Source: Candidatus Hydrogenedens sp.
Lineage (GTDB): Bacteria > Hydrogenedentota > Hydrogenedentia > Hydrogenedentales > Hydrogenedentaceae
DNA length: 27,333 nt
NCBI GenBank assembly: GCA_049968235.1
Contig: JBMFRC010000030.1
Span: 1 to 27,333 of the forward strand
Direction: 5' to 3'
The position numbers were made by a program, and so were the translations under genes. The stretch's first letter is position 1, and each line of letters opens with the position of its first letter. Positions 6,201 to 27,333 of the stretch are shown here, piece by piece. The notes below the pieces were generated by a model that did not search any database, was not told the origin of the DNA, and saw only the letters and a list, made by a program, of their open reading frames with translations.

Positions 6201-8558
6201 GCTATCTGGACAACGACAGTGCCTGAAGGAATTAATGTATCTTTCAAGGTTGGTATGGATATTACGCTAACTCCTTTGAAAACGGAAACATATCAAGGTG
6301 CTTCTTTCTCCATTAATGCTAATGTCATCGGTGGAACAGGAACAAAATCATATCGCTGGCTAAGAAACGGACAGGAAGTAGCAGTGACTCCAGCACCGTT
6401 ACTAACGATTAACCCTGTGAACCTGTCCGATACTGGCACATATACCATAGAGGTAACTGACAGCACACATACAGAAACAGGTGATAATAGCGTTAGTGTA
6501 TTAGTTTATCTACCTGTTGCTATCAATACTCAGCCTATTGGCGGAAACTACACGACCGGGCAAACATTATTACTCACAGTTTCTGCGACTGGCGGTAAAG
6601 GCTCTCTAAATTATGATTGGCGGAAAGGCGGTGTATCGTTAGGTACTCCGAATCTGCCATATTTAGATTTATCGCCAGCGGGTCCGGAGGATAACGGAAG
6701 TTACGATGTAGTCGTTTCGGATGAACTTGGGTCTATTCCATATGGACAGGTTATCTCCAGTTCCGCATTGATTACAGTTAACGACCCATTAGCGGTTTAT
6801 GGACCTGCAGGACAGACTACAGTATATGAGAATACACCGAATGTGCAGTTAACTGTTCTGGCAAGTGGTGGTGTATCACCGTATAGATACGAGTGGTTTA
6901 AAGACCTTAATGAAAATGGTATCTTAGACGAAGGCGAGGTATTAAGCAATACCCCGCCATTCTCTGGTGTGGATACAGACACCCTGACTGTATCATCTCC
7001 AACTATAAGCAATAGCGGAGTATATCGTTGTATTGTTACAGATGATAACGGCAATGGTACAAGTGTGGTATCGCAAGCCGGAGTATTGAATGTTGTTCCT
7101 CATCTGACTATCGCAGTTCAACCACAAAATGTAGTTCGGAATCCAGGACAGAGTGTTCAGTTTACTGTAGAAATCATCGGTGGTATCCCTCCGTTGACAT
7201 ACACATGGCGTCGAGCCAGCATCGGCAATCTACCTCCTGAACAACAGCCCGGTGGAAATGTTTTGACACTGAACAATCTGAACGAGACAGATGAAGATTT
7301 CTACGATGTAATTATTCAAGACAGCGGGACTGATAGTATTACATCCGATGCAGTATTTTTGATGATAGTGGATAACCCACTTACGATTACTTCTCAGCCA
7401 ACAGACTTACGGGCGTATGTCGGAGAGTATCCATCACATACTCTTCAGGTAGTTGCAAATGGTGGATATGGAACTATCCACTACCTATGGATGAAGGATA
7501 ATCAGCCTGCCCCCGGTGTGAATAACCAATCCATCTACTTTATTACACCATTGACCACGAATGTCTCAGGGACTTATTACTGTGTGGTTAGCGATGATGT
7601 CCCAGAGAATAATATCAACTCGGATTCTGTAGAAGTATTAATTGCGGAGCATATGCAGTTTGTAAATGACCTACCTTCGGTGAAATACGCACCATATAAT
7701 GAACCGTTGACTTTAACTGTCTTGCTATCGGGCGGTTTAGGGAATCTTAATTACGAATGGTGGTTTAATAATGGCAATGGTTATACCCAGATAAGTGGCA
7801 ATTCTCCAACGATTAATTTGGGGAATCCCACAAGTATCAATACAGGGTTGTATTATGTACGTGTATTTGATGAGCGCGAAGAACTGCAATCCATAGTTTG
7901 TCAAATCTATGTAGGTGAAGATTTAGCGATTACACAACAACCTCAGGAAGTATTGATTTATATAGATGAAGGTCCTAATTTCCAGTTGGATGTTCAGACC
8001 ACCGATGGCTTTGGAAATAAACAATACACATGGTATCGTAATAATGAACTGGCTCCTGGAATAAATAATGAAGCAGTTTATGTATCCCCTCAAATAGAAC
8101 CATTATTGTCAGGTAATTATTGGGTTGAAGTTCGGGATGAAAAAGATACAGTACGGTCTGAACAAGCACGAGTTGCTATTAGTTCTCATGCAGAATTTCT
8201 CCGCCAACCTACAGGTGGAACAGTAGGAGAAGGAAATACCTGGCGATTTGAGGTAGAAGTAACGGGTGGGTTAATTGAATTGCATTATCAATGGAAATTC
8301 CAGCCGTTAGGTAAAGTGAAAGAAATTCAAAATATTGGCACAGATTCACCTATATTGGAAATCGCGGATATTAGTTCGAATGATGCAGGTTTATATTGGG
8401 TTGAAGTTACAGATGCTCGTGAGACAATTTCCTCAAATCAAGTTATATTAAATGTAGAAAAAGATATACCCTCGCATAATTTGTTAGGTATTACAATCAT
8501 AATTATTTCTATCATATCGATATTTTTCTATATTAAACAGTCCAAAGCAAAAGTATAA
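3288..8558 (+). CDS. Large intact ORF (1756 codons) for the remainder of giant surface protein paralog B: tail of the SGNH domain (DPIHLN His block), 2 Ig-like domains, a beta-solenoid-like segment, a ~380-aa Gly-rich GGxGGx tract, 8 tandem ~90-aa Ig (I-set-like) repeats and a C-terminal TM anchor
   Basis: ORF track 3288..8558. It begins at TTG one nucleotide after the TGA of the upstream fragment. Motifs read directly: DTTPPFVASI and DTTSPTVLI Ig-like openings. Gly-rich GGVGGSSGSGGNGGPGG...GGAGGAGGNGGNGG. Eight repeats each carry a GGxGxxxYxW motif (YRWLRNG, YDWRKGG, YEWFKD, YTWRRAS, YLWMKDN, YEWWFNN, YTWYRNN, YQWKFQP at about 270-nt spacing) and an SGxYxCxVxD-type motif (DTGTYTIEVTD, NSGVYRCIVTDD, VSGTYYCVVSDD, DAGLYWVEVTDA ...). 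The C-terminus is NLLGITIIIISIISIFFYIKQSKAKV. Whether it is expressed is uncertain because the upstream part is disrupted. Confidence 0.7.
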   Translation: MNSAFVELGWRKRNIANTRNRVAYIHNFGLQQYRHGHPGFWDKGPVYRPAFASNISPIPGDPTDYIPYPGGFIEYPTPRVGLANNGNDPIHLNTTGYRDLCGYALYQFFANWLIDTTPPFVASITRNPSAPNPTNTQTLEFIVTFTEPVTNVTLDDFVIEGIGFSGASLVSISGSGTTRTVTINRGTGQGDISIDLIDRDTIYDMNWRVLGNALGQNFGAGNANYTAGEYYTIDTTSPTVLITADTPQPNETTYATFTTTFSEPVTGFTASDIQLTVSGSGIAQVTNFSGSGATYNFGITVARSSDIFVTVNIPNGICSDIAGNPNQGYTYDNYYFKLPPFASTDVYLSNGTLGDLTVNSGDILVFYTGTNTLPPYYQINSGMQIQGQLLDIGSGNKVGKFNFQSIYVPSGVSITVSGTNPLVIAGTKDITWNSPVDVSGAVPGRAGGGVGGSSGSGGNGGPGGVGGTSGGSGALSAPGGAGGDYSNGGQGQPGTSYSGYAGGAGGQGSVGQNGSAGASGTVGFNGMGSPGSGGGGGSGGPASPVWGNGGSAGSGGPSGGGGGGKTCENGNPGGNDGDGYNGGNANPGAPGNNGQNGSPGGNASFIAPANDLTLAGGAGGGGGGGGGGGSGGQGGGKGGGGGSGGSGGGGGGAWNAPCHNCSGSAIDGFGGVGGIGGAGGAGGNGGNGGTAPKARDGGKGGDRCGVIVLSARGLVVFGGQINISASAPGSGGTTVPANPGSAGVDPGNNWGWGSGGGNGTQGYWANSIGWCFPVESNGGNGGSGGRGGRGGIGGTGGQSRTSGAGGIGGLGTPGMFKLHGSIILTSGGLVVCNNHTTDASSNIIGRFTHISNMRSPTYPAFSDDILIGATQNDAVLKAPAPYNLLISAPLIPQLVGGPATGGFTESDFWNKSQVNTPGIDLVEKVELSGSNSPFKDFKQIFLVNNGGVDAKEVELYVDGSPTYYIGIIPSGAIWTTTVPEGINVSFKVGMDITLTPLKTETYQGASFSINANVIGGTGTKSYRWLRNGQEVAVTPAPLLTINPVNLSDTGTYTIEVTDSTHTETGDNSVSVLVYLPVAINTQPIGGNYTTGQTLLLTVSATGGKGSLNYDWRKGGVSLGTPNLPYLDLSPAGPEDNGSYDVVVSDELGSIPYGQVISSSALITVNDPLAVYGPAGQTTVYENTPNVQLTVLASGGVSPYRYEWFKDLNENGILDEGEVLSNTPPFSGVDTDTLTVSSPTISNSGVYRCIVTDDNGNGTSVVSQAGVLNVVPHLTIAVQPQNVVRNPGQSVQFTVEIIGGIPPLTYTWRRASIGNLPPEQQPGGNVLTLNNLNETDEDFYDVIIQDSGTDSITSDAVFLMIVDNPLTITSQPTDLRAYVGEYPSHTLQVVANGGYGTIHYLWMKDNQPAPGVNNQSIYFITPLTTNVSGTYYCVVSDDVPENNINSDSVEVLIAEHMQFVNDLPSVKYAPYNEPLTLTVLLSGGLGNLNYEWWFNNGNGYTQISGNSPTINLGNPTSINTGLYYVRVFDEREELQSIVCQIYVGEDLAITQQPQEVLIYIDEGPNFQLDVQTTDGFGNKQYTWYRNNELAPGINNEAVYVSPQIEPLLSGNYWVEVRDEKDTVRSEQARVAISSHAEFLRQPTGGTVGEGNTWRFEVEVTGGLIELHYQWKFQPLGKVKEIQNIGTDSPILEIADISSNDAGLYWVEVTDARETISSNQVILNVEKDIPSHNLLGITIIIISIISIFFYIKQSKAKV
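5142..5173 (+). repeat. Perfect 9-bp tandem repeat (GGAGGAGGC) x3 plus a partial copy inside the Gly-rich coding tract
   Basis: Read directly: ggaggaggc ggaggaggc ggaggaggc ggagg. It encodes GGG units in frame and is a plausible slipped-strand length-variation site. Confidence 0.7.
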
Positions 8559-14171: not shown

Positions 14172-14969
14172 ATGAAAAAGAAAGCAGACCCTATCTGGGC
14201 GAGAATTCGTGAAGAAGCACAGGAAGGTATTCAAAAAGAGCCATTGCTTGCAAGTTTTTTGTCATCCACCATATTATCACACAAGACTTTGGAGGATGTA
14301 TTAAGTTTCCATTTGGCAGGGAAATTAGAAAGCATCACTTTGCCCGCGGTGAGTTTACGTGAATTGTTTGACGAAGCCTTCGCAAATGAATCCGGAATTG
14401 GAGAGGCTATTCGTGCGGACTTGATTGCCGTTCATGACCGAGACCCCGCATGCCGGTTATTCTGCCAGCCTTTATTATATTTCAAAGGTTTTCAGGCGTT
14501 GCAATCATATCGAGTTGCTCATTATTACTGGAATAGGGAACGGTTTCATCTGGCTTTATTTTTACAAAGCAGAATGTCAGAGGTGTTCGGGATTGATATA
14601 CATCCTGCTGCAAGAATCGGCAAAGGGATATTGATTGACCATGGAACAGGGGTGGTTATTGGAGAAACCGCTGTAATTGGGAATAATGTATCTTTATTAC
14701 ATGAAGTAACCTTAGGAGGAACGGGGAAAGTTCGTGGAGATAGACATCCCAAGATTGGAGATGGAGTATTAATTGCTGCGGGTGCAAAGATATTAGGAAA
14801 TGTTCATGTAGGGGAAGGTGCAAAAGTTGCTGCATGTGCCGTTGTTCTCAGGGATATTCCTCCTCATACCACAGTTGCGGGAGTACCTGCAAAACCGATT
14901 GGTCCTACTTCTGAAGAGGCTCCAGCCCTTGTTATGGACCAATTCTTTTCCAATGGTGAGGGACTTTAA
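14172..14969 (+). CDS. cysE: Serine O-acetyltransferase (CysE), left-handed beta-helix hexapeptide acyltransferase
   Basis: MKKKADPIWARIREEAQ is the classic CysE N-terminus. Hexapeptide repeats IGETAVIGNNVSLLHEVTLGG...IGDGVLIAAGAKILGNV. The track start 14151 is a TTG; the ATG at 14172 is preferred. Confidence 0.8.
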   Translation: MKKKADPIWARIREEAQEGIQKEPLLASFLSSTILSHKTLEDVLSFHLAGKLESITLPAVSLRELFDEAFANESGIGEAIRADLIAVHDRDPACRLFCQPLLYFKGFQALQSYRVAHYYWNRERFHLALFLQSRMSEVFGIDIHPAARIGKGILIDHGTGVVIGETAVIGNNVSLLHEVTLGGTGKVRGDRHPKIGDGVLIAAGAKILGNVHVGEGAKVAACAVVLRDIPPHTTVAGVPAKPIGPTSEEAPALVMDQFFSNGEGL

Positions 14970-16024
14970 GGAGTTAAGTTCATTGTTTTTAAATCTTCTG
15001 TTAACCATTCCGCAAGATAACTGTAAATAATCGGTTTGGGGTGTCCATCAGGATATTTATGTTCGTTCTTTTTTTCCAATCCATTTAATATTTCTTTTTT
15101 ACTACTGTCTCTAAAATAATCAATAACAATAAATTCTTTTTTCCCCTTTATATAATCATAAATGCCCGGAACTGCCTCCGCAGAACCTGGAAAAAACAGG
15201 AAAACCATTTGAATCTCTGGAAACCGTTTTGAAAGGTTTTCGCGTGTTTTTAGTAATAATAGGTAAAGTAATTCAAACTGGTCTTTTGTAAATTCGGGAG
15301 GGTAATCAATACCCTTTATGTCAAATATCATAGAAATTAAAGTAGATTTATAAAGCATTTCTGAGATAAAGCATGAATAAGGTTTGGTATCAGCAAAGGT
15401 ACCTAAGTTCAAAATTTCACCTTTTCCCATTTCAATATGGGGAAGATATTTGCCCCATCTACCAATGATAGACCATGAGCCGATTAACCTTTTTAAGTGA
15501 CTTCCAATAAAAGTATAGACAACAACAGTAGGAAGTGCTTTTATATCATCTGTAAAATCTGAATTTAATGTGGAGAGATATATTTCTTGAGGAGAATATC
15601 CGGGGACTCCATAGTTATACACTTTACAATGGGGATTTCGCATAGCAAATTGGGATGGTAATGTCTCGTTATCATTGACCTCTGTACCAAAAGTGAACGA
15701 ACAACCTATAAAAAGATAATTTACTTTTTTTTCTGTTTCTGAAGATGAATACGTATTTCTTCTTCCTTTTTTATCTATGGAGTAATTATATGTTACCGAA
15801 GGAAGGGAGCCTTTTTTTATTACTGCGTAGCCTTTTATTCCCGCATTGAGTTTTTTCGGTTTAGTAATATCTGTATGGGTAAGTATAGAAGGGTTTTCCT
15901 GTATAGTCAATTTAAAATATCTATTGTATATGGGTCGTGAAATCATCTCAGAAATAAATAATATACCTATTAAAAATGCACAGCCTAAAAGAAAAGCAAT
16001 TAGATTAGACAAATATTTTTTCAT
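14966..16024 (-). CDS. Membrane-anchored SGNH/GDSL-fold hydrolase-like protein (hypothetical)
   Basis: ORF track. N-terminal TM segment MKKYLSNLIAFLLGCAFLIGILFI. FIGCSFTFG resembles SGNH block I. DGHPKP resembles block V (DGxHP). Its stop overlaps the cysE stop on the opposite strand inside a TTTAA palindrome (14966-14969). Confidence 0.6.
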   Translation of the reverse strand: MKKYLSNLIAFLLGCAFLIGILFISEMISRPIYNRYFKLTIQENPSILTHTDITKPKKLNAGIKGYAVIKKGSLPSVTYNYSIDKKGRRNTYSSSETEKKVNYLFIGCSFTFGTEVNDNETLPSQFAMRNPHCKVYNYGVPGYSPQEIYLSTLNSDFTDDIKALPTVVVYTFIGSHLKRLIGSWSIIGRWGKYLPHIEMGKGEILNLGTFADTKPYSCFISEMLYKSTLISMIFDIKGIDYPPEFTKDQFELLYLLLLKTRENLSKRFPEIQMVFLFFPGSAEAVPGIYDYIKGKKEFIVIDYFRDSSKKEILNGLEKKNEHKYPDGHPKPIIYSYLAEWLTEDLKTMNLTP

Positions 16025-18880: not shown

Positions 18881-20818
18881 GTGTTTGGTGACGATGACAA
18901 TAAAAAAGTTTTTCGGGACCAGGTAATAGGGCTATTGTTAATTACCGGTATTGTGATTATTTGGAGTTATTTTTTTATTCCTTCACCGCCTCAAAAAACA
19001 GTAAAAGATAATGGAAATATTGCGGTTAATGAAACAAACAAACAAATTTCAGAAAATACAGCGCCCCTTCAATCTTCGGAAAAAACAATTCCCATAAAAA
19101 AAGAGGACACAGAAAAAGAAGAGAAGCAACAATTATTAGAAATGGGGATAGTTTTCCCTCCAGAACCCGAAATTACGAATGAAGAAGAAAATCATGTAAC
19201 TTTATCCGGAGAAAATATGGATATTGTTTTTACACGAATTGGGGCACGGGTAAAGTATCTGAATATTTATTTAAAACCCAATCGAACAGATAAAGTGCAG
19301 ATTGTCCCTATATGGAAGAACACACCTGATAAAGATGCGGTTTATCCGTTTGGACTTCGTTTCCATGACCATCCCCTTGATGATGAATTAGATTCAAAAC
19401 GCTGGGATGTGCAGATTAATGAAACCGAGCATACCGCTTCTTTTTCTTATACAATACCTAATTTCCTACGGATAGATAAAATATTTTCATTTGGAGATTC
19501 TCCTTTCGTTGTCGATGTAAGGATAAAAATTACAAATCTATCCTCAACTGTTTTTCCCAAGAATTTACAAAATAGAGTTGACCCGGTCCTCTCTTTGAGT
19601 TGGGGTCCTAATGTAAATTCGGGGGATAATAATAAAGGCATTGTGCAGACCGTAATTTTTGAACGCAAAGGGGAACTTTTAAGGTATGTAACATCAAAAT
19701 TTAAACCAAAACCCAATCCGAAGGAGTTTTTGGAACGAACATTTGATGTAAGATGGTCTGCCATTCGAAGCGCCTATTTTGTGATTGCACTAAAACCAGA
19801 ATTTAATATGGCACAGGGGTGGATTACAGGCGGTCCAAAACATTTCCGGGTAGGAATCGGTGTAACACAATGTCAGATTGACCCTCATGAAACACAGGAG
19901 TTTCTTATAAGGTCATATGTGGGACCGAACAGAGGTCCTTTACTCGCTAAGGCATGGTCAGGATTGGAACAGGTTTGGGAATTTTTTACATCTGTAAAGA
20001 TAATGGATAAGTTTGCAAAATTGTTGCTTGCCATATTGAACTTTTTTTATGAGTGGACCATTCCTAATTATGGTGTGGCTATTATTTTATTGACTATTTT
20101 AGTTCGCCTTGTTGTTTTTCCACTCACATGGAAAAGTATGGTTAGCATGAAAAAAATGCAGAAACTTGCCCCAGAGATAGAAAAGTTAAAAGCAGAAGTA
20201 GGAGATAACCAGCAAGAACTACAAAAAAGGATGATGGAATTATATCGGGAACGAGGAGTTAATCCTTTAGGAGGGTGTTTACCGTTATTCTTACAGTTGC
20301 CTGTATTTATAGCACTGTATCGAATGCTCTGGAGTGCAGTCGAATTACGAGGTGCAGAGTTTATATTTTGGATGAAAGATATGTCACAGCCTGACCGTTT
20401 AGTTAATCTTCCTTTTTCCATTCCGTTTCCTTTTAGTGGTGGAAATCTGGAAAGTATTAATTTGCTCCCCATTTTGATGGGTATTTCTATGTATGTTAGC
20501 CAGAAATTAACACCGGGTGCCTCTGCTGTGCAAACACCACAACAGCGAATTATGATGAATATTATGCCTATATTCTTCACCCTCATATGTTATAACATGG
20601 CTTCAGGTTTGAGTTTGTATATTTTAGTGAGTACCTTATTAGGAATTGCCCAGAACTATATAGTTCCTATGAAAGATGTGGATATTACACCGCGTAAAGT
20701 AGCCACGACACGAAGACATTTTTATACCGTAGCACAAGAAAAGAAACGACAATGGACAAAAGAACTTCGTCGTGAACGAAAACTGAAACAAAGAAAAACA
20801 AATGAGGATGAAGAGTAA
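18881..20818 (+). CDS. yidC: Membrane protein insertase YidC (long periplasmic N-domain, basic C-terminal tail)
   Basis: ORF track. GTG start with a GGAGA Shine-Dalgarno. The conserved YidC core is YGVAIILLTILVRLVVFPLTWKSMVSMKKMQKLAPEIEKLKAEVGDNQQELQKRMMELYRERGVNPLGGCLPLFLQLPVFIALY. C-tail is RRHFYTVAQEKKRQWTKELRRERKLKQRK. Confidence 0.9.
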   Translation: MFGDDDNKKVFRDQVIGLLLITGIVIIWSYFFIPSPPQKTVKDNGNIAVNETNKQISENTAPLQSSEKTIPIKKEDTEKEEKQQLLEMGIVFPPEPEITNEEENHVTLSGENMDIVFTRIGARVKYLNIYLKPNRTDKVQIVPIWKNTPDKDAVYPFGLRFHDHPLDDELDSKRWDVQINETEHTASFSYTIPNFLRIDKIFSFGDSPFVVDVRIKITNLSSTVFPKNLQNRVDPVLSLSWGPNVNSGDNNKGIVQTVIFERKGELLRYVTSKFKPKPNPKEFLERTFDVRWSAIRSAYFVIALKPEFNMAQGWITGGPKHFRVGIGVTQCQIDPHETQEFLIRSYVGPNRGPLLAKAWSGLEQVWEFFTSVKIMDKFAKLLLAILNFFYEWTIPNYGVAIILLTILVRLVVFPLTWKSMVSMKKMQKLAPEIEKLKAEVGDNQQELQKRMMELYRERGVNPLGGCLPLFLQLPVFIALYRMLWSAVELRGAEFIFWMKDMSQPDRLVNLPFSIPFPFSGGNLESINLLPILMGISMYVSQKLTPGASAVQTPQQRIMMNIMPIFFTLICYNMASGLSLYILVSTLLGIAQNYIVPMKDVDITPRKVATTRRHFYTVAQEKKRQWTKELRRERKLKQRKTNEDEE

Positions 20819-20885: not shown

Positions 20886-22013
20886 ATGAAACAGATAGAA
20901 ACCGTCGGAGCAACACGAGAGGAAGCCATTCAAAAGGCTCTTGAAGAGTTAGGGGTTGAAATGGCTGATGTATCGAACATCGAAGTGATTGATGAGGGTA
21001 GTAAAGGATTCCTGGGACTGGGTTCACGACCGGTAAAGGTTCGTGTTACAGTTGAAAAATCCATACCACAAGACCATCAAAAGCTACAAAAGCATACAGA
21101 TGAGAAAGGTAGTAAACATACTCCGGCCAAAAGCAAGGAGAGGGTGCTACCTAAACCTACAAAAGGAAAAGGTAAAGAATTTGAGAAAAATTATGCTCAG
21201 ATGGAATCAGGCAGTATTTCTGAAGAAAACAGTAAACATAACACGAGACAGGAGAGAAAAAATATGATGACAGAACAGCCCCCACAAGAAGAGAATAAGA
21301 ATGTGCAGGAAAAAGAAATGAAAGTAACTATTACAGATGCCCAAGGTAATGAAGCATCAGCCCTCTTAAATGAAATGCTCAAAAAAATGGGGGTTGAAGC
21401 ATCTGTGAAGTTTGTTCGGACAGACGATGGCATCCCAAAATTGGAAATTGAATCGCAAGACGGCGCTTTGTTAATCGGGAAAAAAGGTTCTCACCTTGAA
21501 ACCTTACAATTTCTTATCAACCGTATGTTCTTTGGAATTGAAGAAGGAGATTCCATCGAAAAATTTGTTGTAGATACAGAAAATTACCTGGCACGCAGAA
21601 AAGAAACCTTACAACAAATGGCTTTAGATTTCGCCGAGCGAGCAAGAAAAACAGGAAGAAAAATGAAATTATCTCCTATGCCTTCTCATGAACGAAGAGT
21701 TATACACATGACATTACAGAACGACCATTCGGTTGAAACTTTCAGTATAGGTAAAGGGGACAATCGTTGCGTGGTGATTGCACCTAAAAATCGTCATTTT
21801 GATAGACGACCCCGGGATAATCGAGACCGCAGAGACCATAGAGGTTATAGAGATACAAGAGACCGTAGAGACAGATACCCCAATAATCGTTATTCCAGCA
21901 AACCGCAAAATAGAAGAAGTGGTGGCAGAGACTATAGACCCGATTGGAAACGGGGAAGACCCAACCGTTCTCCCTATGGTGATGATATTGAACCCGGCCA
22001 GGTATCGGAATAA
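20886..22013 (+). CDS. jag: Jag/KhpB-family RNA-binding protein (Jag_N, KH and R3H domains) with a K/E-rich internal insert and an R/D-repeat C-terminal tail
   Basis: ORF track. Jag_N block MKQIETVGATREEAIQKALEELGVEMADVSNIEVIDEGSKGFLGLGSRPVKVRV. R3H-like RRVIHMTLQNDHSVETFSIGKGDNRCVVIAPK. Tail DRRPRDNRDRRDHRGYRDTRDRRDRY. Conserved position between yidC and mnmE. Confidence 0.8.
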   Translation: MKQIETVGATREEAIQKALEELGVEMADVSNIEVIDEGSKGFLGLGSRPVKVRVTVEKSIPQDHQKLQKHTDEKGSKHTPAKSKERVLPKPTKGKGKEFEKNYAQMESGSISEENSKHNTRQERKNMMTEQPPQEENKNVQEKEMKVTITDAQGNEASALLNEMLKKMGVEASVKFVRTDDGIPKLEIESQDGALLIGKKGSHLETLQFLINRMFFGIEEGDSIEKFVVDTENYLARRKETLQQMALDFAERARKTGRKMKLSPMPSHERRVIHMTLQNDHSVETFSIGKGDNRCVVIAPKNRHFDRRPRDNRDRRDHRGYRDTRDRRDRYPNNRYSSKPQNRRSGGRDYRPDWKRGRPNRSPYGDDIEPGQVSE

Positions 22014-22050: not shown

Positions 22051-23433
22051 ATGGGGTGCAAATCAAGGGATGATACAATTACCGCAATTTGCACCCCCCC
22101 GGGTGTGGGTGCGATAGGGGTGATTCGTGTCAGTGGACCGGATGCAATACATGTTGTATCTTCTATTGCTCGGTCAAGAGCAGGACAGAATATAACTATG
22201 AAAAAACGAGGATTATATTATGGATATATTGTAGATGAAAATGAGAAAATCCTTGACGATGTGATTCTATTAACAATGAAATCCCCGCATTCCTATACAG
22301 GAGAAGATGTCGTCGAAATCCATGCACATGGAAATATGTTGATTTTAAGGGGAATTATTGATTTACTTCTAAAAAAGGGGGTTAGAATTGCAGAACCGGG
22401 CGAATTTACAAAACGTGCTTTCTTAAATGGAAAAATAGACCTCACACAGGCAGAAGGTGTTATAGACCAAATTACGGCAAAGACGAAGAAATCTTTGGAA
22501 CTCTCACGGGAAATCCTTGAAGGACACCTTTCAAAAAAGATTTATGAATATTCAGAACATATTAAAACAATATTAGCATGGGTGGAAGCAGTTATAGATT
22601 TTCCTGAAGAAGAAATCCCGGACAAATTATGGCAACAGTCATTGGCCTACCTGCAGGAAATCCTTATAAGTATGAAACGATTATTGTCAACCTCTGAAAG
22701 AGGCAAAATCTTAAGGGAAGGAGTTATTACTGCTATAGCAGGCAAACCGAATGTAGGAAAATCAAGTTTATTTAATGCCCTACTACAAGAAAACCGTGCC
22801 ATCGTTTCTCCATATCCTGGGACAACACGCGACCATCTGGAAGAATATGCATCCTTAGGTGGGGTCCCGGTCCGATTAATCGACACCGCTGGTTTAAGAG
22901 ATGTAACCGAACCTGTTGAGAAAGAGGGTATTGAGCGAGCATGGAAAGCCATTGAAAATGCACATATTATTTTATTTGTCATTGACGCTACAAATATAAA
23001 CAAAGAAGATATTCAATTATATCTGTCCTTAAAGAAAAACACAAATAAAATACTATTGCTAATAGTGAACAAGACCGATTTAAATAAAAACCCCGACATA
23101 CCTCCTTTATTGACAGAAGATGTAAAAAGTATTATTTACACTTCCGCCAAAACAGGCGAAGGATTGGACACACTGGAGAAAGAAATAGTTACGAATCTTT
23201 TAGGAGAGCAAGAAATATCCGGAGATATAATTCTTACCCGTGAACACCAAAAAGATAGTCTGTTAAGGGCATATAAATGTATCCAGAATTGTATCCACCA
23301 AAAAGAATTATCCCCAGAACTAATAGCATTTGAACTACGCGAAGCTCTTCACGCATTAGGAGAAATCACTGGAGAAACCGCCCCGGAAGAACTGTTAGAT
23401 ATAATCTTCTCCTCCTTCTGCATAGGAAAATAA
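22051..23433 (+). CDS. mnmE: tRNA modification GTPase MnmE (TrmE)
   Basis: ORF track. N-terminus DTITAICTPPGVGAIGVIRVSG. G-domain GKPNVGKSSLFNAL...DTAGLR...NKTD. Canonical C-terminal CIGK. Confidence 0.9.
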   Translation: MGCKSRDDTITAICTPPGVGAIGVIRVSGPDAIHVVSSIARSRAGQNITMKKRGLYYGYIVDENEKILDDVILLTMKSPHSYTGEDVVEIHAHGNMLILRGIIDLLLKKGVRIAEPGEFTKRAFLNGKIDLTQAEGVIDQITAKTKKSLELSREILEGHLSKKIYEYSEHIKTILAWVEAVIDFPEEEIPDKLWQQSLAYLQEILISMKRLLSTSERGKILREGVITAIAGKPNVGKSSLFNALLQENRAIVSPYPGTTRDHLEEYASLGGVPVRLIDTAGLRDVTEPVEKEGIERAWKAIENAHIILFVIDATNINKEDIQLYLSLKKNTNKILLLIVNKTDLNKNPDIPPLLTEDVKSIIYTSAKTGEGLDTLEKEIVTNLLGEQEISGDIILTREHQKDSLLRAYKCIQNCIHQKELSPELIAFELREALHALGEITGETAPEELLDIIFSSFCIGK

Positions 23434-23934
23434 AATCAGAATAAATGTGCTTTATAGTCATGGTCTCTTTTCAAACATTATACCGTATGCCTCGCAGGTA
23501 AACAGTGGTATTATAACCTTCGGCGATATTTCTCCACCATATTACTACCCCCTGTATTGCTTACCGCTTGAAATTATCTACAAATTTTTTAATATCAATA
23601 GGATGTAAGGAATGTTGTAATAAGTATAAGTATATGTGGATAGGAAATAGTTTAAAACGGATAATGTTAGAAAGTCAAGAGAAATCTATGCCTGGAATTA
23701 AGTATCACCCGTTATTCCATCAATTTACACCCTCTCGATACCTGAAGAATACCAATGAGCGATTTTATTTTAACTGGTGGGCCATACAAAATTTTGATGA
23801 AGTCGAAATTTGGTTAGTAAAGTGCCCCGCATAGCCTATCCTTATGTACATAAAACGAAGTAAAGGTAATGCACAAAGTGCCGTATAGTTTGAAATGAAA
23901 ACCTACCACACACTATGTTGTTACTGTATTTTTC

Positions 23935-26900
23935 TTATTTTCTGTCATTTAGTTTCTTAACTAAATGGGCAGGACCTTTCAGTTGGATTTTATTCACAAA
24001 ATCATCAAAGTTACAGACCCAATATTTCTTTTGTGGTTCAAGTACGGAAGCCATTCCGCCCTGAGCAGGAATAAGCAATAATTTTACATTAATAGTAAAT
24101 CCATCGAATGAAAAATCTTTGCCCTTTTTTTGTCCATCCTCTTCGGTTTCAAATATCCTTGAATATCCATCAATTTTTCTGTATCCATCTGTATGTTCTG
24201 TACCTTTAGGATCAACGAACAGAATAAAATACTGATTTCCTTTCTTTAACCAAAATATAAAGTCGGGTTTGAATTTTTCAATACGATTTGTTTTAGGTTG
24301 ATAATAAGGTATATAAACTTCATCTAATGTTTCATCAATTTTTGAAAAATACCACCAATCAAAATTTTTAAAAAGATTATTTTCTTGTTGCAAATAATTC
24401 TCTAATTCATTTATAAAATCCACTTCACTTTTGTGCTTAATAATATGCTGAATAAAGTCAGCTCTTTCAGCATCTGATAAAGCAATAGGTAAATAGTAAT
24501 GATTTGTAAGATATTTTATTTTTATTTTTTCTTGAGGGCTGTAAGCGGTTTCTGCTTCTTTTAATAAATTAGTTGAAACATCTTCTATGTTCTTTGTGTA
24601 CTCATCAATATTAATTTCTTTTTTTTCAAGTTTTTCTTTCAGTTGTTGTTTTATTAACTCTTTATCTTTTGCTTTCTTTACTTTTTCTATCTTTTCTCTC
24701 AAGTGATTTAATTTATCTATTGATACATTAATCCTCTTAAAGTGTATGATTTCTTCTTCTAATTTTTTGAAGGTATTAAATTCTTTTGCTTTGCTTGCAA
24801 AGTGTTTAAATATTCGTCCAAGCAAAAATTCTGGGTTATTAACTACTTTTTCTTCGTTATTTATTAAAAAGTAGTTATCTTTTTTAACATTAAATGCTTC
24901 TTTTAATTTTTGTAATACTTTAATATTGCAATCATATTTTACCAAGCAGATTTTATCACCTAAATAATTAAAGTAAGCCCTTGTTAATTCATAATCATTG
25001 GGATGAATAGAAAATTTAACCACATCTTGTTCTTCCACAATAATATTATTAGATTCTCTGTAAACTGGTATTAAAAGTAATTTATCTTTTACATCGGGGT
25101 TTATCTCAAATAAATCACCAAGTAATGCTTCTGGTTTTTCTTGCTTTAATGTTTCTATAACTTCTTTTAAGTTTTCCGATTTTGTTCCATAGACAAATAA
25201 CGATTCCAAAGGTTCTATACTATCTTTAATTGCATCAAATATCTGAGCATCCAGTTCTTTGTTGTTGTAAAGAAATACGGCTCTTTTTCGTTTATCTTTT
25301 ATTGGCTCAATTCGTACACCACGTCCTACAGCTTGTAATACAAATTTTCTTGCATCTGTACCTTTTCCAATATTGATAAACAAAATAATATTGGGTCTGT
25401 TGCTATCCCAACCTTCGTAGAAGGAGCGGGACCCCATTAAAATATTGATTTCCTGACTATTATTGATGTTTTTAAAGATACTTTCATTCTCAAATCTTTC
25501 TACGATTTCATATCCCGATAATTTATTTTTAATCCATTCTGAAATATCTCCGATTTTCATTAGTGCAAATGGCTTATCTGTGGTTTTTAATTTAAAAATC
25601 AATTCCTGTTTATTACTGGGAATTTTAAGAATTTCTATTTTTCCAAAAGTGTCAGAATTAAAAACATACTTTAGAATATCAGAATAGTTTATTTGTTCAA
25701 TGATATCCAAAAAATTTTGATTTATTCTAGCTTCTTCAAAAATAAATTTTGCATTTTCACTTGAAAGTTCATTTTTGAGTTCTTCTATTGATGCTTTAAG
25801 TAAATCATCGCTCAATTGCTCCCCTAATGCAATCTTTTCAATTTCTCTGAAAAAGAGTTCCAAGTCGGAATCATCAGTATTAACAGAATTCACAAGGGTT
25901 ATAAGTAAAGGCCTATGGTATAAATTTTCAGATACGTTTTTAATACCTTCATAGAGTTTATTTATTGCAGTTTGAAGGACAAATATTTTTAGAATGATTT
26001 TTTGTTTTTCAATCCCAATATGATTATCTTTTCTTTCTAATACACTTATATTCTTCTGAGATATGTAAATATGCTTTCCATAGCCATCTTCTATAAATCG
26101 GGCAAGATTAAAGTTAAAAACACAGGTTGCAAAATCTCTTGGGTCTGTAAAGGTAGCAGAAAAATTGAACAGAAATCCATTTCGGCTGAGTATGTTGTAA
26201 AAGGTTTGTCTTTTGCTGTCTTCTCTGTCGCCTTTGTGTGCTTCGTCCAACAAAATATACCAGTTGCCATTAGTGTCATAGTTTTTAAAATCAATGATTT
26301 TATCTTTTTGTTCATCAGATATCAAATCGCTTCGGTAGTAATAAATATCTATACTATTACCAAATTTAAGAGTTGGGTTTTGTTTACTAGAAGAATAATC
26401 TTTTAGGTCAATTAGATTTAAGTCAATATCATTATAAAGATTAAACTCTTCGATATGTTTTTTAAATTGTTCTATTAAATCTTCTCTGTAAGTTAAAAAT
26501 AAAATATCTTTTTTAGGAATTTTATTATTTTTCATAAGATAACCAAGCAATTCAATAAGTTTAACAATAACTAATGTTTTGCCACTACCTGTTGCCATCC
26601 AAAAAGACATACGATTAATGAAATGCTCAAAAGATATTTTGTTGTTTTCTATTGGATAATATTTATCGTATTCTAACAGGTATTTTATAGTTTTACTTTC
26701 TTTTTCGGTGTCAAACCCCAGTTCTTCGGTAAGTCCGTTGTTTAAAAATCTTTGGTAGAATTTGTTTTTTTCTGAGGTGTCTTCATTAAAATAAAGATAT
26801 AGTGCTTTTAAAAAGTTTTTCAAGGCATTTTGTTGGTAATCAAATAGTTTTTTATTACTGGAAAATTTTTCTAAATCTATGCCCAGCCATTCTTGTGGAA

Positions 26901-26952
26901 GGTTATTAAGATCATAGTTTTCTACAATGTTCTGAAGATACAATTTACTCAT
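23935..26952 (-). CDS. SF2 (DEAH-type) helicase fused to a C-terminal PD-(D/E)xK nuclease; architecture of a Type III restriction enzyme Res subunit or a related defense helicase-nuclease
   Basis: ORF track, 1005 aa. Motif Q/Ia LFDYQQNALKN. Motif I MATGSGKT. Motif II ILLDEAHKG. Motif III FSAT. Motif VI LQAVGRGVR. C-terminal KPDFIFWLKKGNQYFILFVDPKG is a PD...D-x-K nuclease motif. A K/E-rich coiled-coil-like segment lies between the two modules. The gene is far AT-richer than its neighbours and its codon usage is AAA/AAT/ATT-dominated. A GGGAG Shine-Dalgarno-like sequence precedes the ATG at 26950-26952. Confidence 0.75.
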   Translation of the reverse strand: MSKLYLQNIVENYDLNNLPQEWLGIDLEKFSSNKKLFDYQQNALKNFLKALYLYFNEDTSEKNKFYQRFLNNGLTEELGFDTEKESKTIKYLLEYDKYYPIENNKISFEHFINRMSFWMATGSGKTLVIVKLIELLGYLMKNNKIPKKDILFLTYREDLIEQFKKHIEEFNLYNDIDLNLIDLKDYSSSKQNPTLKFGNSIDIYYYRSDLISDEQKDKIIDFKNYDTNGNWYILLDEAHKGDREDSKRQTFYNILSRNGFLFNFSATFTDPRDFATCVFNFNLARFIEDGYGKHIYISQKNISVLERKDNHIGIEKQKIILKIFVLQTAINKLYEGIKNVSENLYHRPLLITLVNSVNTDDSDLELFFREIEKIALGEQLSDDLLKASIEELKNELSSENAKFIFEEARINQNFLDIIEQINYSDILKYVFNSDTFGKIEILKIPSNKQELIFKLKTTDKPFALMKIGDISEWIKNKLSGYEIVERFENESIFKNINNSQEINILMGSRSFYEGWDSNRPNIILFINIGKGTDARKFVLQAVGRGVRIEPIKDKRKRAVFLYNNKELDAQIFDAIKDSIEPLESLFVYGTKSENLKEVIETLKQEKPEALLGDLFEINPDVKDKLLLIPVYRESNNIIVEEQDVVKFSIHPNDYELTRAYFNYLGDKICLVKYDCNIKVLQKLKEAFNVKKDNYFLINNEEKVVNNPEFLLGRIFKHFASKAKEFNTFKKLEEEIIHFKRINVSIDKLNHLREKIEKVKKAKDKELIKQQLKEKLEKKEINIDEYTKNIEDVSTNLLKEAETAYSPQEKIKIKYLTNHYYLPIALSDAERADFIQHIIKHKSEVDFINELENYLQQENNLFKNFDWWYFSKIDETLDEVYIPYYQPKTNRIEKFKPDFIFWLKKGNQYFILFVDPKGTEHTDGYRKIDGYSRIFETEEDGQKKGKDFSFDGFTINVKLLLIPAQGGMASVLEPQKKYWVCNFDDFVNKIQLKGPAHLVKKLNDRK

Positions 26953-26956
26953 AGTT

Positions 26957-27333
26957 TCACTCCCACCAGATTAATGGTTTTATCAATCGATAATCCAAAT
27001 CTTTTGTATCTACTTTTGTTCCATCTTCAAACTGCACAACTACCCCGTCAACCTTTGGTTGACACCCCTTCAAAGAAGGGGAATTATTCCCCTCTTTTAG
27101 AGGGGCGTCAGAAGGACTGTGCGTAATTTTTTTTATCCATTTCCCAGTAAGATTAGACAAGGTTTCAGCAATGTCTATATTTGGATAGAGTTTATCCAAA
27201 TCGACCTTTACTTTGTTATTTTCATAATCAATCTCTAAAGCTTTGAGCATCTTTTCGTCTTTTAAGAAAACATATTGTTCGTAAGGACTTTTGTCTCCTG
27301 CAATAAATATATCGTGATTTTCATAAACCGTAT
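26957..27333 (-). CDS. 3' part of an upstream gene (N-terminus beyond the window end) whose TGA (26957-26959) sits 4 nt before the helicase ATG; product unknown, possibly the partner subunit (e.g. a Mod-like methyltransferase C-terminus)
   Basis: The reverse-strand frame is open from the window edge: ...TVYENHDIFIAGDKSPYEQYVFLKDEKMLKALEIDYENNKVKVDLDKLYPNIDIAETLSNLTGKWIKKITHSPSDAPLKEGNNSPSLKGCQPKVDGVVVQFEDGTKVDTKDLDYRLIKPLIWWE. The ORF track lists only the part from the internal Met (26957..27250). Confidence 0.55.
   Translation of the reverse strand, partial: TVYENHDIFIAGDKSPYEQYVFLKDEKMLKALEIDYENNKVKVDLDKLYPNIDIAETLSNLTGKWIKKITHSPSDAPLKEGNNSPSLKGCQPKVDGVVVQFEDGTKVDTKDLDYRLIKPLIWWE
27047..27105. 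repeat. Cluster of four interlocking perfect palindromes built on G4/C4 tracts (7-bp stems; neighbouring hairpins share arms)
   Basis: Read directly on the + strand. gtcaacc-ttt-ggttgac at 27047-27063. ccccttc-aaa-gaagggg at 27065-27081. ggggaat-t-attcccc at 27078-27092. cccctct-ttt-agagggg at 27089-27105. This is a GC-rich islet in an otherwise very AT-rich segment, inside the 3' region of the partial upstream ORF. Confidence 0.8.

What the first reader, a model, noticed from the sequence alone, without database searches (positions are those of the whole stretch)
23434..27333. AT-rich foreign segment directly downstream of mnmE carrying a helicase-nuclease (Type III Res-like), translationally coupled to an upstream partner gene: candidate R-M or other defense island at the trmE hotspot
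Composition drops sharply after mnmE, from about 40% G+C on the housekeeping side to what looks like under 30% in 23.9-27.3 kb (by eye; I have not counted). Codon usage changes accordingly. The 1005-aa product has every SF2 motif in order (LFDYQ, GSGKT, DEAH, SAT, QAVGRGVR) and a C-terminal PD...(D)xK motif (KPDFIFWLKKGNQYFILFVDPKG). That is the Res-subunit layout of Type III R-M enzymes, also seen in other helicase-nuclease defense proteins. The upstream gene ends 4 nt before the helicase ATG, which is operon-like coupling as in mod-res. Its visible C-terminal sequence matches nothing I recognise, so the pair could be a Type III R-M system or a different two-gene helicase-nuclease defense module. 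The 3' end of mnmE/trmE is an established integration site for genomic islands (SGI1-family elements), which fits this being mobile.
Basis: partly seen in the sequence, partly recalled or inferred. Interest (0 to 1): 0.65.

Follow-up and report, generated by a model that had tools for sequence, protein, structure and literature searches.

The report
Divergent Type III-like restriction-modification cassette
Next to the housekeeping gene mnmE, this Candidatus Hydrogenedens contig carries a horizontally acquired, AT-rich two-gene restriction-modification cassette (methyltransferase plus helicase-nuclease) that works like a Type III system but has an unusual, poorly annotated restriction subunit; this is an ordinary kind of bacterial defence gene pair.

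Summary
On the minus strand, 23935-26952 encodes an intact 1005-aa SF2 helicase with a C-terminal PD-(D/E)xK nuclease. The 3.4-kb segment is 28.9% G+C against 39.2% for the rest of the contig. The upstream ORF ends 4 nt before the helicase ATG and runs off the contig end.

The partner is no longer unknown. It is the C-terminus of a roughly 800-aa beta-class Mod methyltransferase, which in relatives matches a Type III MTase model end to end. The pair is therefore a mod-res operon.

The cassette is about 87% identical in DNA to copies in Spirochaetales genomes. In the closest relatives of the host, mnmE is followed directly by tRNA-Val/Glu/Gln and prs, or by a different insert. The site is therefore a variable hotspot.

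No integrase or far border can be seen, because the contig ends inside mod. Verdict: a new member of a known kind, of modest interest.

The parts
22051..23433 (+). mnmE (tRNA modification GTPase). It is the last conserved housekeeping gene and forms the left border of the foreign segment.
   Evidence: Pfam TrmE_N, MnmE_helical and MMR_HSR1. Nucleotide homology with relatives L006, L007 and L010 stops at 23429-23447.
23434..23934 (.). Spacer between the convergent mnmE and res genes. It has no detectable feature and is unique to this species.
   Evidence: No tRNA, no Rfam match, no terminator-like site. Small ORFs have no Pfam hit. 99.9% identical only to same-species contigs L011 and L012. Homology to other res-bearing loci starts at 23898-23915. 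G+C 34.5%.
23935..26952 (-). res: 1005-aa SF2 helicase-like ATPase fused to a C-terminal PD-(D/E)xK nuclease. It is the restriction subunit of a Type III-like R-M system.
26236..26589 (-). RecA1 core of Res, from Walker A (GSGKT, 26575-26589) to Walker B (DEAH, 26236-26247).
   Evidence: T121, K125, D236, E237, A238 and H239 are invariant in A1.
25312..25335 (-). Helicase motif VI (QAVGRGVR) with the arginine fingers.
   Evidence: Q540, R544, G545 and R547 are invariant.
24175..24426 (-). Catalytic core of the nuclease domain: E843 ... P896-D897 ... D914-P915-K916 ... K926.
26953..26967 (-). mod-res junction: GGTGGGAG (Shine-Dalgarno inside the end of mod), TGA stop, the 4-nt AACT, then the res ATG.
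   Evidence: The same junction is conserved in L005, L013 and L018, and is duplicated in front of res in L001 and L017.
26957..27333 (-). 3' end of mod (last 124 codons). The frame is open to the contig end and the gene is cut by the end of the assembly.
   Evidence: Frame read by hand. PADLOC MTase_III PDLC03638 positions 724-795 of 816, E 3.6e-9. 69-72% identical to full-length Mods of L005 and L001. On record as a partial protein on a 27333-bp contig.
27034..27125 (-). G+C-rich nested-palindrome insertion inside mod. It is in frame (net +75 nt, 25 aa) and absent from all relatives.
   Evidence: Alignment. RNA fold -42 kcal/mol, z -3.8. The CCCCT-N7-AGGGG hairpins occur nowhere else in the window or in the 14 loci held at that point (L001-L014).

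Best explanation
This is a horizontally acquired Type III-like restriction-modification operon (mod then res), sitting in a variable slot immediately downstream of mnmE in a Candidatus Hydrogenedens genome.

**Shown here:**
- The gene order, the 4-nt junction and the Shine-Dalgarno sequence.
- An intact Res with every SF2 ATPase motif and a PD-(D/E)xK nuclease fold.
- A partner whose visible C-terminus belongs to a family of roughly 800-aa beta-class (DPPF before FxGxG) methyltransferases, with conserved ends and a hypervariable central target-recognition region.
- Absence of the cassette from the closest host relatives, and near-identical copies in unrelated phyla.

**Inferred from the EcoP1I/EcoP15I paradigm (PMC3874151, PMC4490356, PMC4005696):**
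- A Mod dimer reads a short asymmetric site and methylates one strand.
- One Res docks on Mod through the Mod C-terminal domain.
- On unmethylated DNA, ATP hydrolysis by the Res motor switches the complex into a sliding state.
- Collision with a second, inversely oriented site-bound complex fires the C-terminal nuclease close to the site.

Res alone should be harmless, because it needs Mod to find DNA.

The Res belongs to a separate sequence lineage (PF27151-type C-terminal domain, about 110-aa N-terminal extension). Mod carries about 370 extra N-terminal residues. Details such as stoichiometry and cut position may therefore differ from the canonical enzymes.
For: - **Res domains:** Pfam ResIII, conserved motifs, and a confident model.
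- **Nuclease:** the C-terminal domain matches only PD-(D/E)xK nucleases.
- **Partner in the window:** PADLOC MTase_III hit; 69-72% identity to full-length Mods.
- **Partner in relatives:** those Mods hit MTase_III model PDLC03638 end to end, E 1.6e-302 and 6e-278. They have DPPF at about residue 401, DFFxGxGT at about 600-700, and a centre only 4-36% identical between alleles whose ends are 85-95% identical.
- **Pairing:** a PF01555 methyltransferase lies upstream on the same strand in all seven independent contexts examined. These are L005, L018, L013/14, L016, L001-4, L017 and L015.
- **Horizontal transfer:** res is 87-88% identical in DNA to copies in Spirochaetales MAGs and in an ENA metagenome contig. 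In that close clade (six contexts) mod and res are 26-32% G+C against 31-43% flanks; the distant Rhodothermus plasmid copy (L015) is 58% G+C. Homologues at 58-86% identity occur in at least seven phylum-level groups.
- **Hotspot:** four host relatives have mnmE, then tRNA-Val(cac), tRNA-Glu, tRNA-Gln, prs and rplY. Between mnmE and tRNA-Val there is nothing in L008 and L010, a Type II MTase plus a 207-aa ORF in L007, and a DUF5714 gene in L006.
Against: - **Sequence-level membership fails:** no PADLOC REase_III model hits the Res, whereas EcoPI Res hits one with E = 0.
- **Different nuclease domain family:** canonical Res proteins carry PF19778, which does not hit this protein.
- **Weak profile-profile signal:** comparison with an EcoPI Res family profile gives only 50% probability, over RecA1.
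- **No PDB sequence match**, even with a profile.
- **Mod mostly unseen:** only 124 residues of Mod are in the window, so its catalytic motifs are inferred from relatives.
- **Possible defect:** the visible part carries a 25-aa insertion that could impair the Mod C-terminal domain, the region that contacts Res in EcoP15I (PMC4490356).
- **No experiment:** no activity, recognition site or methylation has been measured for any member, as far as these searches show.
Confidence: 0.65

Rival explanations
1. The cassette is a decaying or inactive remnant. Mod would be crippled by the 75-nt palindromic insertion, or truncated, so that Res is silent and the pair no longer restricts DNA.
For: - The in-frame 25-aa insertion in the Mod C-terminal region is absent from every relative.
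- All three assemblies of this species break inside the cassette.
- Relatives show IS256-disrupted res (L016), and there are many short Mod-C-terminal fragments in databases.
Against: - Res is full length, with every invariant family residue intact.
- The insertion keeps the frame, has no stop, and lies in a stretch that already varies between relatives (KKI-GEGE/GHSE/CEGE-VEFE).
- Contig breaks are equally explained by population heterogeneity in the hypervariable TRD.
Confidence: 0.2
2. It is not a classical R-M system but a different methyltransferase-helicase-nuclease defence system, for example a Type ISP/Type I-like translocating enzyme or an Hma/DISARM-like module. Its mechanism would differ from Type III sliding and collision.
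For: - The Res fails all canonical Type III Res sequence models.
- Mod has an unexplained N-terminal extension of about 370 aa.
- Extra ATPase or defence genes sit between mod and res in several relatives.
Against: - Two genes suffice in L005, L018 and L013/14.
- No PADLOC model of Hma, DISARM, BREX, Zorya or any other system hits the Res.
- Mod matches a curated Type III MTase model over its full length.
- The domain order (helicase, then spacer, then C-terminal nuclease) and the beta-class Mod with a swappable TRD are the Type III layout.
Confidence: 0.12
3. The helicase-nuclease is a resident, vertically inherited DNA-repair or recombination helicase of this lineage. The low G+C would simply reflect its amino-acid composition.
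For: - Synonymous codon usage is not an outlier.
- No integrase, transposase or att repeat is visible in the window.
Against: - The gene is absent from the same position in four relatives.
- It is 87-88% identical in DNA to genes in Spirochaetales MAGs.
- It is always paired with a DNA methyltransferase.
- It is found on plasmids and beside Type I R-M genes.
Confidence: 0.02

Closest known systems
Type III restriction-modification systems (EcoP1I, EcoP15I; Mod2Res1; PDB 4ZCF)
   Same: - Two-gene mod then res operon.
- Res is an SF2 (DEAH) ATPase, then a spacer, then a C-terminal PD-(D/E)xK nuclease.
- There is a long insert between motif Q and motif I, as in EcoP15I.
- Mod is a beta-class amino-methyltransferase (DPPY/F before FxGxG) with a variable central TRD and a conserved C-terminal domain.
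   Different: - The Res shares no detectable sequence-family membership: no REase_III HMM and no PF19778. It carries a PF27151 'YagJ'-type C-terminal domain instead.
- hhalign probability is 33-50% at best.
- The Res has about 110 residues before RecA1, and a helical rather than beta-sandwich insert after RecA1 (against PMC4490356).
- Mod is about 800-850 aa against about 645 aa, with about 370 extra N-terminal residues.
Type ISP (LlaBIII, LlaGI) and Type I HsdR (EcoR124I) restriction motors
   Different: - In those enzymes the nuclease is N-terminal to the motor; here it is C-terminal.
- Type ISP is a single polypeptide.
- Type I needs HsdS and a gamma-class HsdM; here the partner is a beta-class Mod with its own TRD.
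E. coli K-12 YagJ (b0276, CP4-6 cryptic prophage), namesake of Pfam PF27151
   Same: The YagJ core aligns with the nuclease core of this Res (RPDF...VDPH against KPDF...VDPK; hhalign probability 73%).
   Different: YagJ is a 243-aa stand-alone ORF beside IS1C. It has no helicase part, has H in place of the catalytic K, and has no known function.
SGI1-family islands integrated at the 3' end of trmE/mnmE
   Same: Foreign DNA begins immediately after the mnmE stop codon.
   Different: - No integrase, no att duplication of the mnmE 3' end, and no far border can be seen.
- In relatives the slot is bounded on the other side by the 3' end of tRNA-Val(cac), and holds small, unrelated one- or two-gene inserts rather than a large integrative element.
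- The SGI1 integration site itself is recalled from general knowledge and was not checked in a paper here.

Membership tests
Type III R-M system (functional class) | Two adjacent co-oriented genes, mod upstream of res, expressed as a unit | tested here: met
   mod ends 4 nt before the res ATG, with a GGAG inside the mod 3' end. The same junction is found in L005, L013 and L018.
Type III R-M system (functional class) | Res has the SF2 helicase-like ATPase motifs (Q, I, II DEAH, III, VI) in its N-terminal part | tested here: met
Type III R-M system (functional class) | Res has a C-terminal PD-(D/E)xK endonuclease domain | tested here: met
   The E843/PD897/D914-x-K916 motif is conserved. The fold matches Bax1, NgoMIV, Cfr10I and others.
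Type III R-M system (functional class) | Mod is a beta-class N6-adenine (or N4-cytosine) methyltransferase with an internal TRD | tested here: inconclusive
   Met in all relatives: DPPF before DFFxGxGT, a hypervariable centre, and the PDLC03638 MTase_III model matched end to end. In the window only the last 124 residues exist, so the catalytic motifs of this copy are unseen.
Type III R-M system (functional class) | ATP-dependent cleavage that needs Mod and two inversely oriented unmethylated sites; hemimethylation of one strand | not testable with these tools
   This needs biochemistry or methylome data. No characterised member of this lineage was found.
Canonical Type III Res sequence family (EcoPI/EcoP15I Res; PADLOC REase_III; Pfam PF19778 RE_endonuc) | Significant match to REase_III profile HMMs | tested here: not met
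   There are no PADLOC hits for the window Res, P0001 or P0003 at E <= 0.1 or 0.01. The control, EcoPI Res, hits PDLC03649 with E = 0.
Canonical Type III Res sequence family (EcoPI/EcoP15I Res; PADLOC REase_III; Pfam PF19778 RE_endonuc) | C-terminal domain belongs to PF19778 | tested here: not met
   PF19778 is absent from the Pfam scans of the protein and of 29 C-terminal domains. Precomputed domains are PF27151 for this family and PF19778 for canonical Res. hhalign gives only 33-50% probability.
PF27151 (YagJ)-type helicase-nuclease family | Full-length homology to proteins carrying ResIII plus PF27151 | tested here: met
   The window protein is 58-86% identical over 86-100% of its length to the 120 listed proteins, all with ResIII plus PF27151. 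There are 343 cluster representatives at E <= 1e-30. The same-species fragment in L011 is annotated PF27151. PF27151 itself is not in the local Pfam copy, so the window protein was not scanned against it directly.
Genomic island integrated at mnmE/trmE (SGI1-like) | Integrase plus a direct repeat of the mnmE 3' end at the far border | not testable with these tools
   The contig ends inside mod. The same-species contigs L011 and L012 end inside res. No integrase or repeat lies within 23434-27333.
Genomic island (generic: strain- or lineage-variable insert) | Absent from the same site in close relatives, with atypical composition | tested here: met

The most novel reading that the evidence does not exclude
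The PF27151-type Res with a long Mod may form a mechanistically distinct class of ATP-dependent R-M system, which current defence-finders score as an orphan methyltransferase. Its conserved ~45-nt mod-res junction might also act as a docking site where other defence genes are inserted and co-expressed. Examples are a Ppl-like ATPase, a Schlafen/AlbA_2 ATPase, an M78 peptidase with DUF4411, and a nucleotidyltransferase. The junction is duplicated wherever such cargo sits between mod and res.
Probability: 0.1. Interest if true: 0.5.

Novelty: new member of a known kind. Interest (0 to 1): 0.25.

Why it matters
For this genome, the result turns a 'DEAD/DEAH box helicase' and a 'hypothetical protein, partial' into a probable restriction system. 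It also marks the mnmE | tRNA-Val junction as a site of gene flux in Hydrogenedentota.

More generally, it points to an annotation gap. A widespread Res lineage has 343 clusters (50% identity) at E <= 1e-30. It occurs in Bacteroidota, Ignavibacteriota, Spirochaetota, Thermotogota, Rhodothermota, CPR and others, including on plasmids. Yet it is invisible to the PADLOC REase_III profiles and to PF19778. Its Mod partners are likely to be scored as orphan Type III methyltransferases, and the abundance of Type III systems would then be underestimated in environmental genomes.

Nothing here challenges current understanding of R-M systems.

Tried and rejected
- **Contig with the exact Res:** the exact-sequence look-up of the Res found no contig.
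- **Same-species contigs:** the exact MnmE look-up found two, but both end inside res.
- **Metagenome scan for the junction:** this found a contig from a different organism, with the cassette beside Type I hsdS/hsdR/hsdM, so it did not give the far border.
- **Last protein search:** run with the Mod fragment, it showed that the window is the entire 27333-bp contig.
- **PDB sequence searches:** the protein, the full-length profile and the C-terminal profile all gave nothing meaningful.
- **NCBIfam:** only a noise-level hit.
- **Rfam, tRNA and terminator scans** of the segment were empty.
- **Repeat search:** no direct repeat of the mnmE 3' end or any other convincing repeat was found within 23300-27333.
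- **Codon usage:** a codon-usage shift as independent evidence of foreignness was rejected, because the synonymous usage distance is unremarkable.
- **Literature:** a search on YagJ returned no functional study.
- **Palindromic insert:** searches for further copies found none in the window or in the 14 loci held at that point. Its status as a repeated mobile element remains untested.
- **Hma, DISARM, BREX or Zorya-type systems:** considered, then rejected because no PADLOC model matched and the two genes suffice in several loci.

Full report
**What is in the sequence**

The window is a complete public contig. Its last ORF fragment is on record as a partial hypothetical protein on a 27333-bp contig of a Candidatus Hydrogenedens sp. 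MAG. The plus strand carries rpmH, rnpA, yidD, yidC (18881-20818), jag (20886-22013) and mnmE (22051-23433).

A featureless 500-bp spacer follows, at 23434-23934. It has no tRNA, no Rfam match, no terminator-like site and no Pfam hit for its small ORFs.

The minus strand then carries a 1005-aa ORF at 23935-26952. It is preceded by an ORF whose frame stays open to the contig edge (26957-27333, 124 codons). That upstream ORF stops (TGA) 4 nt before the ATG of the long ORF, and a GGAG lies 7 nt upstream of the ATG.

Across 65 family members sharing 31-86% identity, the following are invariant or at least 90% conserved:
- Q40
- G122-S-G-K-T126
- D236-E-A-H239
- S265-A-T267
- Q540 and R544-G-x-R547
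- in the C-terminal domain, E843, P896-D897, D914-P915-K916 and K926

G+C is 28.1% for the long gene and 28.9% for 23935-27333, against 39.2% for the rest of the contig. No other 3.4-kb window falls below 35.6%.

One nuance: the drop is carried mainly by codon positions 1 and 2 (0.40 and 0.22). GC3 is 0.225, against 0.25-0.33 in most neighbouring genes. The synonymous codon usage distance (0.75) lies within the range of the other genes. Codon usage therefore adds little as independent evidence.

**The partner gene**

The 124 visible residues hit the C-terminal end (positions 724-795 of 816) of PADLOC model PDLC03638, 'Type III methyltransferase'. They are 69-72% identical to the C-termini of full-length 796-850-aa PF01555 methyltransferases that precede res homologues elsewhere.

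Those full-length proteins match PDLC03638 from end to end, at E 1.6e-302 and 6e-278. They have DPPF at about residue 401 and DFFxGxGT at about 600-700, which is the beta-class order of Type III Mods. Their centre is only 4-36% identical between alleles whose N- and C-terminal regions are 85-95% identical. That is the pattern expected of swappable target-recognition domains.

A PF01555 methyltransferase lies upstream on the same strand in all seven independent contexts inspected:
- adjacent in L005, L018, L013/14 and L016
- with other genes wedged in between in L001-4, L017 and L015

.

**The helicase-nuclease**

Pfam finds only the generic ResIII/DEAD/SNF2 ATPase domain. At the sequence level the protein stands apart from canonical Type III Res proteins:
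- No PADLOC model hits it, whereas EcoPI Res hits REase_III with E = 0.
- NCBIfam gives only noise.
- PDB sequence searches give nothing, even with profiles.
- Canonical Res proteins carry PF19778. This family carries PF27151 'YagJ' instead.
- Profile-profile comparison with an EcoPI Res family alignment gives only 50% probability, over RecA1.
- Against the single EcoPI sequence, the only aligned stretch is the nuclease motif, FSKI...IP...PDF...(D/E)xK, at 33% probability.

The domain order is N-terminal extension, RecA1, insert, RecA2, helical spacer, nuclease. This parallels EcoP15I Res, which has RecA1 at 7-269, a Pin insert, RecA2 at 366-594, a spacer at 620-810 and then the endonuclease (PMC4490356).

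**Foreign origin and the insertion site**

MnmE identifies the host lineage: it is 82% identical to that of Ca. Hydrogenedens terephthalaticus and 70-76% identical to four other MAGs. In the four relatives whose contigs extend past mnmE, it is followed by tRNA-Val(cac, minus strand), tRNA-Glu, tRNA-Gln, prs and rplY.

Between the mnmE stop and the 3' end of tRNA-Val the relatives differ:
- 14 bp in L010
- 78 bp in L008
- a Type II methyltransferase (PDLC03337, E 4e-137) plus a 207-aa ORF in L007
- a DUF5714 gene in L006

.

Homology between the window and these relatives stops at the mnmE stop codon. The window contains no tRNA at all.

The res gene is 87-88% identical in DNA over 3.1 kb to copies in Spirochaetales MAGs and in an unrelated ENA metagenome contig. 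In that contig the cassette sits among Type I hsdS, hsdR and hsdM genes. In this close clade mod and res are 26-32% G+C whatever the flanks (31-43%); the distant Rhodothermus plasmid copy (L015) is 58% G+C. Homologues at 58-86% identity are spread over many phyla, and more distant ones occur on plasmids.

The segment is therefore horizontally acquired and sits in a lineage-variable slot.

What cannot be shown is how it got there. There is no integrase, no transposase and no repeat of the mnmE 3' end in 23434-27333. The far border lies beyond the contig. All three assemblies of this species break inside the cassette. The window breaks close to where the conserved Mod C-terminus meets the hypervariable TRD. 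That pattern is what population heterogeneity in the TRD would produce, but this is inference.

The analogy with SGI1, which integrates at the trmE 3' end (my own knowledge, not checked in a paper here), is therefore unproven. The 3' end of tRNA-Val is an equally plausible target.

**Mechanism**

Shown here:
- the operon layout
- an intact ATPase and an intact nuclease
- a beta-class Mod family with variable TRDs
- horizontal mobility

Inferred from EcoP1I/EcoP15I (PMC3874151, PMC4005696, PMC4490356, PMC6158743):
- A Mod dimer recognises an asymmetric site and methylates one strand.
- One Res is held through the Mod C-terminal domain.
- ATP hydrolysis converts the site-bound complex into a sliding clamp.
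- Collision with an inversely oriented, site-bound complex activates cleavage near the site.

I put about 0.65 on this. The main alternative is that this particular copy is inactive. A smaller alternative is that the lineage works differently, in a Type I/ISP-like or multi-component way.

**Comparison and novelty**

By function and architecture this is a Type III-like R-M system. By sequence-family membership the Res is not a member of the canonical EcoP1/EcoP15 Res family: two defining features were tested and not met.

It belongs instead to a large family that already exists in Pfam (PF27151) and in annotation. NCBI names its members 'DEAD/DEAH box helicase family protein' or 'restriction endonuclease subunit R', and JGI names some 'type III restriction enzyme'.

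E. coli K-12 YagJ is the namesake of PF27151. It is a 243-aa ORF next to IS1C in the cryptic prophage CP4-6. It aligns with the nuclease core at 73% probability but has H in place of the catalytic K.

I rate the finding a new member of a known kind. Its practical value is the annotation gap: the PADLOC REase_III models miss the Res, so such Mods are likely to be scored as orphan methyltransferases.

**Side observations**

- The mod fragment carries a 75-nt in-frame, G+C-rich nested palindrome at 27034-27125, absent from all relatives. It folds at -42 kcal/mol (z -3.8) and is unique in the window. It recalls the in-frame palindromic elements of Rickettsia (my own knowledge).
- In several relatives, other defence-type genes are wedged between mod and res. 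In L001 and L017 the last ~45 nt of mod, including the Shine-Dalgarno sequence, are duplicated in front of res.

Noticed in passing
window 27034-27125 (- strand, inside the mod 3' end): A 75-nt in-frame insertion (25 aa...THSPSDAPLKEGNNSPSLKGCQPKVDGVV...) made of nested G+C-rich palindromes: CCCCT-N7-AGGGG units plus GTCAACCAAAGGTTGAC, flanked by GCACA...TGTGC. It is absent from every related mod. It folds at -42 kcal/mol (z -3.8). It looks like a miniature palindromic element that inserted without breaking the frame, as Rickettsia palindromic elements do. No second copy was found in the window or in the 14 loci held at that point (L001-L014).
   Followed up: partly
L001:4384-9961, L017:6310-7931, L015:4551-6004 (relatives; not in the window): Other defence-type genes are wedged between mod and res. 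L001-4 carry a Ppl-like AAA ATPase, a Schlafen/AlbA_2-HATPase_c_4 protein, an M78 peptidase and DUF4411. L017 carries M78 and DUF4411. The Rhodothermus plasmid (L015) carries a nucleotidyltransferase and a hypothetical protein. In L001 and L017 the last ~45 nt of mod, including the Shine-Dalgarno sequence, are repeated directly in front of res. This suggests a recurrent insertion point.
   Followed up: partly
L006-L010 (relatives), the site equivalent to window 23434: The slot between the mnmE stop and the 3' end of tRNA-Val(cac) is variable across Hydrogenedens-like genomes. It is empty in L008 and L010, holds a Type II MTase plus a 207-aa ORF (a likely Type II R-M) in L007, and holds a DUF5714 gene in L006. 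The window has no tRNA gene anywhere.
   Followed up: yes
window end 27333; L011 and L012 ends: All three assemblies of this species break inside the mod-res cassette. The window contig ends close to where the conserved Mod C-terminus meets the hypervariable TRD. This is consistent with several mod alleles coexisting in the population, though low coverage is also possible.
   Followed up: no
window 3288-8558 (+), especially 4500-6000: A 1756-aa protein rich in immunoglobulin-like domains (Ig_3, I-set, Big_12). An internal stretch has 52-55% G+C and strong positive GC skew, in a contig averaging 38% G+C.
   Followed up: no
window 23935-23970 (3' end of res): The window Res is about 12 residues longer at its C-terminus than its closest homologues (1005 against 985-993 aa). 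Nucleotide homology to L001 continues about 37 nt past the window's stop codon. The tail is predicted disordered (pLDDT below 50 for residues 994-1005).
   Followed up: no
L020:7501-8232 (E. coli K-12 yagJ, CP4-6 prophage): YagJ is the namesake of Pfam PF27151. It aligns only with the nuclease core of this Res family and has VDPH in place of VDPK. It sits directly beside IS1C. It may be a stand-alone or truncated, possibly inactive, relative.
   Followed up: partly
window 14966-16024 (-): A 352-aa ORF with no Pfam match and low G+C (32%, GC1 0.37), sitting between housekeeping-type genes. It is the second most AT-rich gene in the contig.
   Followed up: no
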